Shown here one piece after another: positions 48,753 to 49,913 of a stretch of DNA of 52,807 nt. The stretch is from Escherichia phage vB_EcoBD_211, in sequence record PV893055.1. One strand, given 5' to 3'. Under the pieces are notes generated by a model. The model did not search any database. It worked only from the letters and a program-made list of their open reading frames with translations, and was not told the DNA's origin. Positions within the stretch are counted from its first letter, which is position 1, and each line of letters opens with the position of its first letter. Made by a program: the position numbers and the translations under genes.

Positions 48753-49423
48753 TTGTGTAAACTCCTGTACCGTTGTATCAGAACTTGTTTGTTATCAACA
48801 TATTCATCATTATAAGTGAAGTCACTATCAATGTACATCATTAATTTGCTACGATCCATTAAAATATCACTTGGACCTGATTGCTTGATTGTACTGATAA
48901 ACATGTTGTCGATACGGAGTAAGTCTTTTGCGTGTTCTTCAAGGGCAGAAAGTATCAACTCGGCACCACCTACAATCCAGACGTCAGTACCTCTGGATTC
49001 AAGGTCTGCGGCCATCTCACCCAGATTATTGTAGCCTTCTGAAGCCATAATCTGACGAGATACCGGCAGCAGTATTCTGTGGGCTGACATAGGCAGACTC
49101 ATAGTCATATAAGTATTACGACCGGCTAACAATACGCTATGCCCTACCATTTTTACCGTTACATCTGCTATCATGTTTCGCAACTGGTCTTGCGGGAACT
49201 GCTCACGTAGTTGCTGATACGCATTATAGCCTGGTTCTGTCGCAACTGAATTAGTCATAGTCCTGAAAAAGAGCATGTCTGACGGACATTTCCAAGGAAG
49301 ACCAGATTTAGGAAGCGCACGGACCTCTTCCATGGTCTTGCACGAGTCCACCTGATGCTTCATAAACTCCGGAGATAACCCGAATTCCCCATTTTGGCCC
49401 ATTGCGAAGATTATATTAATCAC
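48749..49423 (-). CDS. dihydrofolate reductase (phage type)
   Basis: DHFR motifs: FGL...LPW, FFRTMT, VLLAGRNTY and IVGGAEL. Confidence 0.6.
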   Translation of the reverse strand: MINIIFAMGQNGEFGLSPEFMKHQVDSCKTMEEVRALPKSGLPWKCPSDMLFFRTMTNSVATEPGYNAYQQLREQFPQDQLRNMIADVTVKMVGHSVLLAGRNTYMTMSLPMSAHRILLPVSRQIMASEGYNNLGEMAADLESRGTDVWIVGGAELILSALEEHAKDLLRIDNMFISTIKQSGPSDILMDRSKLMMYIDSDFTYNDEYVDNKQVLIQRYRSLHK

Positions 49424-49913
49424 CTAAAAAGCCCCCGGTAGTGTCGGTCAAAAGCGAGTTCATAACGTCTTGTGGCAGTATCACAGGATGATTGCCTGTT
49501 TCAATTTTTGGCTTAGTTTTTGGCGCTTTTTGGCGCTCTGTATACTCGTCATGGGCCTTACAAATGGCATTTACGATGAAATCATGCTGATATGCGTACC
49601 ATTCATCATTTTCTGGGTCGTATTTAAGCCCTACGTAGTTCATCAGCGACGACATTACGTGAATGCCTTCGTGGGAAATGGTGTTGTACTTCAGGTCGTC
49701 CGGGTGGTACAGTTCGACGACGATTAACAGGTACGGATAGTTAACGCGAGAGAACGTAAAGGTAGATGCAGTACGCGTTTCTCGGTCATTCCAGTTGCCA
49801 AAATCAGGCAAATCCATCAGTTTTTGGAGCTCTTCGTGCTCTTTTTCACTACAAACGATAGCCAATTGAGGCGGATATGGCTCTAATTGAACAATTTTCA
49901 TAATGTTACCCAC
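49416..49913 (-). CDS. HExxH zinc-metallopeptidase-like protein
   Basis: HEGIH motif (TISHEGIHV); first gene of the leftward operon. Confidence 0.45.
   Translation of the reverse strand: MGNIMKIVQLEPYPPQLAIVCSEKEHEELQKLMDLPDFGNWNDRETRTASTFTFSRVNYPYLLIVVELYHPDDLKYNTISHEGIHVMSSLMNYVGLKYDPENDEWYAYQHDFIVNAICKAHDEYTERQKAPKTKPKIETGNHPVILPQDVMNSLLTDTTGGFLGD

What the first reader, a model, noticed from the sequence alone, without database searches (positions are those of the whole stretch)
49416..49913. Small HExxH metallopeptidase-like protein as first gene of the leftward operon
The ~165-aa protein contains HEGIH, a minimal zincin signature, with no other recognisable domain. It is the promoter-proximal gene of the operon that also carries DHFR and the dNMP kinase. 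Small phage HExxH proteins are often regulators or host-targeting factors, so this is a candidate host-takeover or anti-defence effector rather than a morphogenetic protease (it is far from the capsid and scaffold genes).
Basis: partly seen in the sequence, partly recalled or inferred. Interest (0 to 1): 0.45.

Follow-up and report, generated by a model that had tools for sequence, protein, structure and literature searches.

The report
Small phage zinc-protease-like protein, target unknown
The gene is real and belongs to a large family of small phage proteins, never studied, that all keep the zinc-binding and catalytic residues of a metalloprotease; what the protein cuts, and whether it attacks the host, is still unknown.

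Summary
A 161-aa ORF (ATG 49901, stop 49416-49418, minus strand) carries HEGIH and is the first gene of the leftward operon of a Rosemountvirus-type Salmonella/E. coli myophage.

A lone HExxH means little, but this one is conserved. An exhaustive profile search found 591 related protein clusters, mostly 110-145 aa. In an alignment of 134 members with 14% mean column identity, only H77, E78, H81 and E100 are invariant. The usual spacing is HExxH-x18-E, a gluzincin-type signature.

All members fall in PHROG 1365 (function unknown). No Pfam family reaches its threshold and no solved structure is related by sequence.

The host-takeover or anti-defence reading is plausible but untested. Relatives sit beside DNA polymerases or primases, upstream of terminase, or inside head-gene modules, so a role on phage proteins is not excluded.

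A homologue's peptides were detected by mass spectrometry. The "Ku protein" annotation of another homologue is not supported. A conserved 36-residue acidic tail is specific to the close relatives.

The parts
49416..49901 (-). Coding sequence of the 161-aa protein (ATG 49901, TAA 49418-49416).
   Evidence: ORF list; N-termini of homologues align to the ATG; PHROG 1365 at E 2.2e-27; peptides of the 39%-identical fHy-Eco03 Gp12 seen by LC-MS/MS
49659..49673 (-). HEGIH (aa 77-81): two predicted zinc-binding histidines and the catalytic glutamate, inside predicted helix 72-90
49602..49610 (-). N98-D99-E100. E100 is invariant across the family and is the predicted third zinc ligand; it starts predicted helix 100-125. 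Spacing is HExxH-x18-E.
49590..49592 (-). Y104 of the 'AY' motif, conserved in at least 90% of members; candidate transition-state-stabilising residue (inference)
49419..49526 (-). C-terminal tail (aa 126-161), lower model confidence, found only in Rosemountvirus/Loughboroughvirus-like relatives. Conserved motifs are IETGNHP (49505-49485) and the C-terminal FLxD (49430-49419).
49948..50001 (-). Conserved promoter-like block upstream of the gene: TAGACA (50001-49996), a 17-nt spacer ending in TG, TACTTT (49978-49973), then GCTATCATTAAT (49959-49948)
   Evidence: three-genus alignment; coordinates. Function inferred, not tested.
48749..49423 (-). Downstream DHFR gene. Its GTG start overlaps the end of the target gene by 8 nt, which suggests translational coupling (inference).

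Best explanation
The gene encodes a soluble, acidic cytoplasmic protein with two parts. The first is a minimal zinc-metallopeptidase domain of about 125 residues of the gluzincin type. H77 and H81 on one helix and E100 on the next would hold the zinc, E78 would be the general base, and Y104 may assist. The second part is a 36-residue conserved tail that probably docks onto a partner or regulates the enzyme.

The gene has its own promoter and is the first gene of the leftward operon, next to the probable terminal-repeat boundary, so it should be made before or together with the nucleotide-metabolism enzymes. The most likely mechanism is site-specific cleavage of one or a few proteins in the infected cell. 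I favour host proteins (takeover or counter-defence), because the family behaves like a mobile accessory gene.

Shown: the gene, the conservation of the four catalytic-type residues, the spacing, the secondary-structure order, the family's restriction to phage contexts, and translation of a homologue.

Inferred: zinc binding, peptidase activity, timing of expression, and the nature of the substrate.
For: - Residues: H77, E78, H81 and E100 are invariant in 134 sequences with 14% mean column identity.
- Motif and spacing: HExxH is present in all 159 relatives fetched up to that point. Of the 161 relatives then held, a simple pattern for the downstream acidic motif matched 137, and in 123 of those the spacing is 18 residues.
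- Model: AlphaFold model with pLDDT 85.5 and pTM 0.73. Its order is strand, strand, helix, strand, strand, HExxH helix, Glu helix. This fits the zincin core as defined in PMC5512222.
- Remote similarity: the Pfam hits shared by the most members are zinc peptidases: SprT-like 16, DUF5700 16, M78 3, Astacin 3 of 134.
- Viral structure matches: 23 matches at E <= 0.001, all phage proteins. Within the listed matches (E up to 6e-3), four carry SprT-like, PolyVal metallopeptidase or metalloprotease names.
- Accessory-gene behaviour: the family sits in many unrelated phage groups and in varied positions among small unknown genes.
- Gene position and promoter.
- Expression: peptides of homologue Gp12 were detected, 3 peptides and 7 PSMs.
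Against:
- No Pfam, NCBIfam or PADLOC model reaches significance for this protein.
- There is no evidence of any kind about the substrate.
- Several relatives lie in head-gene or replication modules. That fits a phage-directed role as well as a host-directed one.
- The homologue was not among the fHy-Eco03 genes screened for toxicity; it had been classed as particle-associated.
Confidence: 0.45

Rival explanations
1. It processes phage proteins, or is a particle-associated protease. It would trim a head, packaging or ejection protein, or be carried in the virion and act after ejection, as proposed for solo and fused zincin domains of phage 'polyvalent' proteins.
For: - In L030 the family member lies between the portal and scaffold/major-head genes. 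In L014 and L017 it follows the portal gene. In Serratia phage Eta it precedes the capsid gene.
- In the window and at least seven other loci it lies upstream of the large terminase gene and is transcribed in the same direction.
- fHy-Eco03 Gp12 is annotated as particle-associated from LC-MS/MS.
- PMC5512222 proposes such roles for phage metallopeptidase domains.
Against: - The fHy-Eco03 preparation also contained DNA polymerase, primase, thymidylate synthase and DHFR. In all, 48 of 81 proteins were called particle-associated, so the detection shows expression, not packaging.
- The S144 virion proteome, as far as its table was shown, lists no ORF01.
- The capsid system has a scaffold and needs no known protease.
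- Many relatives sit in replication modules instead.
Confidence: 0.2
2. It is a replication-associated protease, comparable to SprT/Spartan/Wss1. It would remove proteins trapped on, or bound to, phage DNA, or process a replisome component. The acidic tail ending in an aromatic residue would tether it to a replication protein.
For: - Members are immediately adjacent to a family-A DNA polymerase gene in four phages from different groups: Klebsiella fHeKpn01, Enterobacter Entb_48, Escherichia HK578 and Serratia Otaku.
- Members are adjacent to a primase gene in two more.
- SprT-like is jointly the most frequent remote Pfam hit.
- The window gene heads a nucleotide-metabolism cluster.
Against: - The protein is acidic (pI 4.96, net charge -11), the family median pI is 5.8, and there is no DNA-binding module.
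- The third ligand is Glu, not the His of SprT-like proteins.
- A profile comparison with E. coli YggI (which I recall to be the SprT homologue) aligned only 23 columns around HExxH, with probability 7.7%.
- Adjacency is not universal.
- The tail-tether idea is speculation from motif resemblance.
Confidence: 0.12
3. It is not a peptidase. It would be either a zincin-like hydrolase acting on a small molecule or nucleotide, in keeping with its DHFR and kinase neighbours, or a metal-binding regulator that works by binding rather than cleavage.
For: - It is encoded next to DHFR and dNMP kinase.
- No peptidase family membership could be established.
- Inactive zincin homologues are known (title and abstract of PMC11266112, listed).
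Against: - A pseudoenzyme would not be expected to keep the catalytic Glu invariant.
- By homology with phage KE24, the genome already has a nucleotide pyrophosphohydrolase, a dCMP deaminase and a thymidylate synthase.
- The DHFR neighbourhood is not conserved across the family.
Confidence: 0.1
4. It is a Ku/Gam-like DNA-end-binding protein, as annotated for ORF01 of phage S144.
For: The GenBank note and paper on S144 cite an InterPro SPOC-like superfamily hit. The gene lies close to the probable genome end.
Confidence: 0.02

Closest known systems
Gluzincin metallopeptidases (HExxH plus a downstream Glu; thermolysin M4 and the M1 aminopeptidases with HExxH-x18-E)
   Same: It has HExxH on one helix and an invariant Glu 18 residues later at the start of the next helix, plus a nearby conserved Tyr. 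The M1 and thermolysin spacing is from my own knowledge of these families.
   Different: The domain is only about 125 residues. There is no detectable sequence or fold match to any solved gluzincin.
Minimal zincins: minigluzincins, and the Wss1/Spartan/SprT-like group (Pfam PF10263)
   Same: Similar size, a sheet plus two C-terminal helices, and the most frequent remote Pfam hit (16 of 134 members at E < 1). PMC4559962 places Wss1 and Spartan among the minigluzincins.
   Different: The window protein has no PF10263 hit. The third ligand is Glu rather than His (the His is my recollection of that family). It has no DNA-binding region and is acidic. Comparison with E. coli YggI covers only the HExxH helix.
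Zincin-like metallopeptidase domains of phage and plasmid 'polyvalent' proteins (Iyer et al. 2017, PMC5512222)
   Same: Phage-borne, with the same core definition: a three-stranded sheet, an N-terminal helix, an HExxH helix and a Glu helix. Proposed roles are self-processing or attack on host proteins. One viral structure match carries this name.
   Different: Here the domain stands alone as a small protein rather than being fused into a large multi-domain protein. Membership of any of that paper's 12 clades was not tested.
ImmA/IrrE (Peptidase M78) and DUF5700
   Same: HExxH zincins found in phages. There are weak hits from a few family members: M78 3, DUF5700 16 of 134.
   Different: All hits are below the curated thresholds. 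There is no adjacent repressor gene of the kind that accompanies ImmA (that pairing is my knowledge of the family), and the phage is virulent.
PHROG 1365 (phage protein family, function unknown)
   Same: The window protein and all 134 aligned relatives match it (E 2.2e-27 for the window protein).
   Different: None. This is the family it belongs to, but the family carries no functional description.

Membership tests
PHROG 1365 | Significant match to the family profile over most of its length | tested here: met
   E 2.2e-27, residues 1-126 against profile positions 5-125 of 127. All 134 aligned relatives match it too.
Zincin / gluzincin superfamily | HExxH motif located in an alpha-helix | tested here: met
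   HEGIH at residues 77-81 within predicted helix 72-90. It is invariant in the family.
Zincin / gluzincin superfamily | Third zinc ligand (Glu) on the following helix | tested here: met
   At sequence level, E100 is invariant, lies 18 residues after H81, and is the first residue of predicted helix 100-125. The geometry of the three ligands could not be measured because no coordinates were returned.
Zincin / gluzincin superfamily | Core fold: mixed beta-sheet plus backing helix, active-site helix and glutamate helix, superposable on solved zincins | tested here: inconclusive
Zincin / gluzincin superfamily | Zinc binding and peptide-bond hydrolysis | not testable with these tools
   Needs purified protein.
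SprT-like (PF10263) | Profile match above the curated threshold | tested here: not met
   No hit for the window protein even at E <= 10. 16 of 134 relatives hit weakly, best E 1.8e-4. hhalign against E. coli YggI gave probability 7.7% over 23 columns.
Peptidase M78 (ImmA/IrrE) | Profile match | tested here: not met
   No hit for the window protein. 3 of 134 relatives hit weakly.
Peptidase M78 (ImmA/IrrE) | Neighbouring repressor gene | not tested
   The neighbouring genes are DHFR and a non-coding region. No repressor search was run.
Ku / Mu Gam DNA-end-binding proteins (annotation of S144 ORF01) | Sequence or fold similarity to Ku or Gam | tested here: not met
Known anti-phage defence proteins (PADLOC) | Match to a defence-system protein model | tested here: not met
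   No hit for the window protein. There were seven scattered single hits among 134 relatives, none of them a peptidase.

The most novel reading that the evidence does not exclude
PHROG 1365 could be a previously unrecognised class of stand-alone phage metalloproteases built on a scaffold too divergent for current fold libraries. Each would cleave a specific host factor, for example an immunity protein or a nucleoid or replication protein. In the Rosemountvirus lineage, the conserved IETGNHP...FLxD tail would act as a built-in latency peptide or as a docking peptide for the target.
Probability: 0.2. Interest if true: 0.7.

Novelty: new variant of a known kind. Interest (0 to 1): 0.4.

Why it matters
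If the family is an active protease, it is a large pool of very small enzymes (at least 591 clusters at 50% identity) with no Pfam entry, no solved structure and no known substrate. It is spread over phages of Enterobacteria, Flavobacterium and Bacteroides, crAss-like phages and a jumbo phage.

Finding even one substrate would show whether phages commonly use miniature zincins to disable host proteins or to process their own. It would also correct existing annotations such as 'Ku protein' and 'structural protein'. The Rosemountvirus member is a convenient entry point, because these phages grow on E. coli K-12 and Salmonella.

Tried and rejected
- **Sequence searches against solved structures:** single protein and three profiles gave nothing meaningful.
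- **First AlphaFold run:** with 13 sequences the model was poor (pLDDT 59), so it was not used for fold searches.
- **Fold libraries:** the AFDB50 library was unavailable.
- **Word-indexed homology search:** it returned only 12-15 proteins even with a 134-sequence profile. The exhaustive search was needed to see the family.
- **The search for related loci with the full alignment:** failed because no stretch was conserved enough. A 13-sequence subset worked but biases the loci towards one subfamily. The genome scan with that subset found only 9 Bacteroidota loci, which were not analysed further.
- **Profile comparison with E. coli YggI:** only the HExxH helix aligned.
- **NCBIfam and PADLOC:** no informative hits.
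- **Conserved partner gene:** none emerged from 121 neighbour proteins. Terminase, portal, HNH, RusA and Ant were the commonest neighbours, each in only a few loci. I judged the terminase proximity too weak to count as an association.
- **Domain fusions:** one WYL_2 fusion (P0050), and two proteins of about 390 aa with no Pfam hit in their extensions. Too few to guide function.
- **Structured RNA or tRNA near the gene:** none found.
- **Literature:** no paper mentions PHROG 1365, and none characterises a homologue.

Full report
**1. What the window is**

The region is 95-97% identical to about 45 Salmonella and Escherichia myophages of the genus Rosemountvirus (BP63, swi3, CF2, UPF_BP2, KE24 and others). 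At 52.8 kb, the window matches the size of these genomes.

**2. The observation**

- The ORF at 49416-49913 on the minus strand exists, 165 aa from a GTG start.
- Every homologue starts at the position of the ATG at 49901, so the product is most likely 161 aa.
- HEGIH occupies residues 77-81, nt 49673-49659.
- It is the only HExxH in any ORF of more than 100 codons in the six frames of the window.

One such short motif could arise by chance, so conservation has to carry the argument.

**3. The family**

PHROGs places the protein in phrog_1365, 'unknown function' (E 2.2e-27). Pfam gives nothing.

The word-indexed protein search found only close relatives, 12 proteins down to 36% identity. The exhaustive profile search of 1.84 billion cluster representatives found 591 proteins at E <= 0.001. 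Most are 110-145 aa and match residues 1 to about 125 of the query.

- All 159 sequences fetched up to that point contain HExxH.
- In an alignment of 134 of them (mean column identity 14%), the only invariant columns are H77, E78, H81 and E100. Y104 is at least 90% conserved.
- Of the 161 relatives then held, a simple pattern for the downstream acidic motif matched 137. In 123 of those the Glu follows the second His by 18 residues, usually as N-D-E-x-x-A-Y.

From my own knowledge of the families, HExxH-x18-E is the M1 signature and is one residue short of the thermolysin spacing.

**4. Structure**

With 13 sequences AlphaFold gave a poor model (pLDDT 59). With the 134-sequence alignment it gave pLDDT 85.5 and pTM 0.73. 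The predicted elements are:

| Element | Residues |
|---|---|
| strand | 2-5 |
| strand | 12-16 |
| helix | 19-29 |
| strand | 46-52 |
| strand | 55-63 |
| helix carrying HExxH | 72-90 |
| helix beginning at E100 | 100-125 |
| tail, lower confidence, with a short helix at 144-150 | 126-161 |

Automated fold searches did not confirm it:

- Foldseek against the PDB gave nothing below E 0.3.
- Against predicted viral structures there were 23 matches at E <= 0.001, all phage proteins. Most are unnamed. Within the listed matches (E up to 6e-3), four carry SprT-like, 'PolyVal metallopeptidase' or 'metalloprotease' labels.

Coordinates were not returned, so I could not measure whether the three ligands converge. 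The fold criterion is therefore inconclusive: neither met nor failed.

**5. Remote sequence relationships**

I scanned all 134 members against Pfam. At E < 0.01 the only families hit are DUF5700 (6 members), SprT-like (5) and M78 (1). At E < 1 the leaders are SprT-like (16), DUF5700 (16), M78 (3) and Astacin (3). All are HExxH zinc-peptidase families, and none reaches its curated threshold.

These hits are probably driven largely by the HExxH helix. A profile comparison with E. coli YggI aligned only 23 columns there (probability 7.7%); I recall YggI to be the SprT homologue. Profiles searched against PDB sequences, NCBIfam and PADLOC gave nothing useful.

**6. The tail**

Residues 126-161 are absent from the bulk of the family. 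They are conserved among the Rosemountvirus, Loughboroughvirus and related proteins: I-[EA]-T-G-N-H-P, a short helical stretch, and a C-terminal F-L-x-D.

The whole protein is acidic, with pI 4.96 and net charge -11. Conserved short motifs in a flexible tail suggest docking to a partner or self-inhibition of the active site. Both are inferences.

**7. Gene position and expression**

An 800-bp non-coding stretch separates the gene from rightward small ORFs. The same strand continues with these genes:

- DHFR, whose GTG start overlaps the target's end by 8 nt
- thymidylate/dNMP kinase
- three unknown genes
- large terminase
- portal
- scaffold
- major capsid

Alignment with S144 and fHy-Eco03 shows a conserved promoter-like block, TAGACA-17 nt ending in TG-TACTTT, at 50001-49973. 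The simple promoter scan did not list it.

In fHy-Eco03 the homologue gp12 is the first gene after the 3,699-bp left terminal repeat. So 'promoter-proximal first gene' is well supported. The timing of expression is not known.

**8. Experimental data on homologues**

- fHy-Eco03 Gp12 (39% identical) was detected by LC-MS/MS in purified particles: 3 peptides, 7 PSMs, 47% coverage.
- The same preparation contained DNA polymerase, primase/helicase, thymidylate synthase, DHFR and terminase. In all, 48 of 81 proteins were called particle-associated.
- This proves translation, not packaging.
- HHpred in that study gave 'no significant hits' for g12.
- S144 ORF01 (64% identical) was annotated 'putative Ku protein' from a superfamily hit. 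It does not appear in the part of the virion proteome table that was shown.

**9. Genomic context across the family**

All 39 loci examined encode confirmed members (E 3e-12 to 2e-36 against the family profile). The contexts differ:

- **Next to a family-A DNA polymerase:** Klebsiella phage fHeKpn01 gp20, Enterobacter phage Entb_48, Escherichia phage HK578 gp37, Serratia phage Otaku gp54.
- **Near a polymerase and flanked by two methyltransferases:** Flavobacterium phage Fpv5.
- **Next to a primase:** LoVEphage and L025.
- **Upstream of the large terminase, transcribed in the same direction:** the window, L008, L010, L012, L023, L024, L028 and L039.
- **Inside head modules:** L030 has portal, this gene, scaffold, major head in that order. 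L014 and L017 have it after the portal gene. Serratia phage Eta has it after the lysis genes and before the capsid gene.
- **Among small unknown genes:** the jumbo phage Wellington and a P22-like Proteus phage.

No single partner gene recurs.

This is the pattern of a mobile accessory gene, which fits a host-interaction role.

**10. Interpretation**

I put the probability that this is an active zinc-dependent hydrolase of the zincin type at about 0.75. The basis is the invariance of exactly the four residues that such an enzyme needs.

The substrate is unknown. I rank the possibilities as follows:

- **A host protein target** comes first, with overall confidence 0.45 for the whole statement.
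- **Processing of phage proteins or virion association** comes next (0.2).
- **A replication-linked SprT-like role** follows (0.12). It is weakened by the acidic charge and the lack of any DNA-binding part.
- **A non-peptidase or non-catalytic role** follows (0.1).
- **Ku/Gam** comes last (0.02).

**11. Novelty**

The family is already catalogued as PHROG 1365 but has no function, no Pfam model, no solved structure and no literature. It is best described as a distinct, uncharacterised family within the known zincin superfamily. It is of moderate interest because of its size and spread, not because of any demonstrated new mechanism.

Noticed in passing
window 50115-50200 and 50290-50375 (read on the minus strand): The divergent intergenic region holds two imperfect direct repeats of about 70-85 nt sharing GGGG..TAAT..AGGGGTGC..AGGAGCC.GCG.AATT.TTT. 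Both are conserved in S144 and fHy-Eco03. By my count along the alignment, the copy nearer the gene lines up with the end of the 3,699-bp terminal repeat reported for fHy-Eco03. They could mark the terminal-repeat boundary or a protein-binding site. There is no sign of a structured RNA (z -0.3 to -0.8) and no Rfam match.
   Followed up: partly
window 49948-50001, minus strand: A promoter-like block, TAGACA-17 nt (ending TG)-TACTTT followed by GCTATCATTAAT, is nearly invariant across three phage genera. The simple promoter scan missed it.
   Followed up: partly
whole window, by homology with KE24 (L044) and fHy-Eco03: These phages encode DHFR, thymidylate kinase, a thymidylate synthase homologue, dCMP deaminase and a nucleotide pyrophosphohydrolase. 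The authors of the fHy-Eco03 paper report that its DNA resists several restriction enzymes and suggest an unknown DNA modification. The window phage may carry a modified base.
   Followed up: no
P0002 (Salmonella phage SPHG1 homologue): The segment TKPKIETGNH, which lies in the C-terminal tail of all other relatives, sits after residue 27 in this protein and is missing from its tail. This is either a real rearrangement or an assembly error.
   Followed up: no
L042 (S144) 4003-4272; L041 (fHy-Eco03) 3995-4231; L001 (KE24) 1992-2507: The gene order after the target varies between relatives. S144 and fHy-Eco03 have an extra small ORF between it and DHFR. KE24 has an HNH endonuclease between DHFR and the kinase, and JEP7 has a homing endonuclease in this stretch. 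This segment seems to be a hotspot for insertions.
   Followed up: no
P0050, P0016, P0056 (distant family members): A few members are fused to other parts. P0050 carries a C-terminal WYL_2 domain (E 1.5e-9). P0016 and P0056 (about 390 aa) have a long shared C-terminal extension that ends in a four-cysteine motif and has no Pfam hit.
   Followed up: partly
GenBank MT663719 (S144 ORF01) and MW602648 (fHy-Eco03 gp12): Public annotations of the homologues, 'putative Ku protein' and 'putative structural protein', are probably misleading. The first rests on a weak superfamily hit. The second rests on a particle preparation that also contained replication enzymes.
   Followed up: yes
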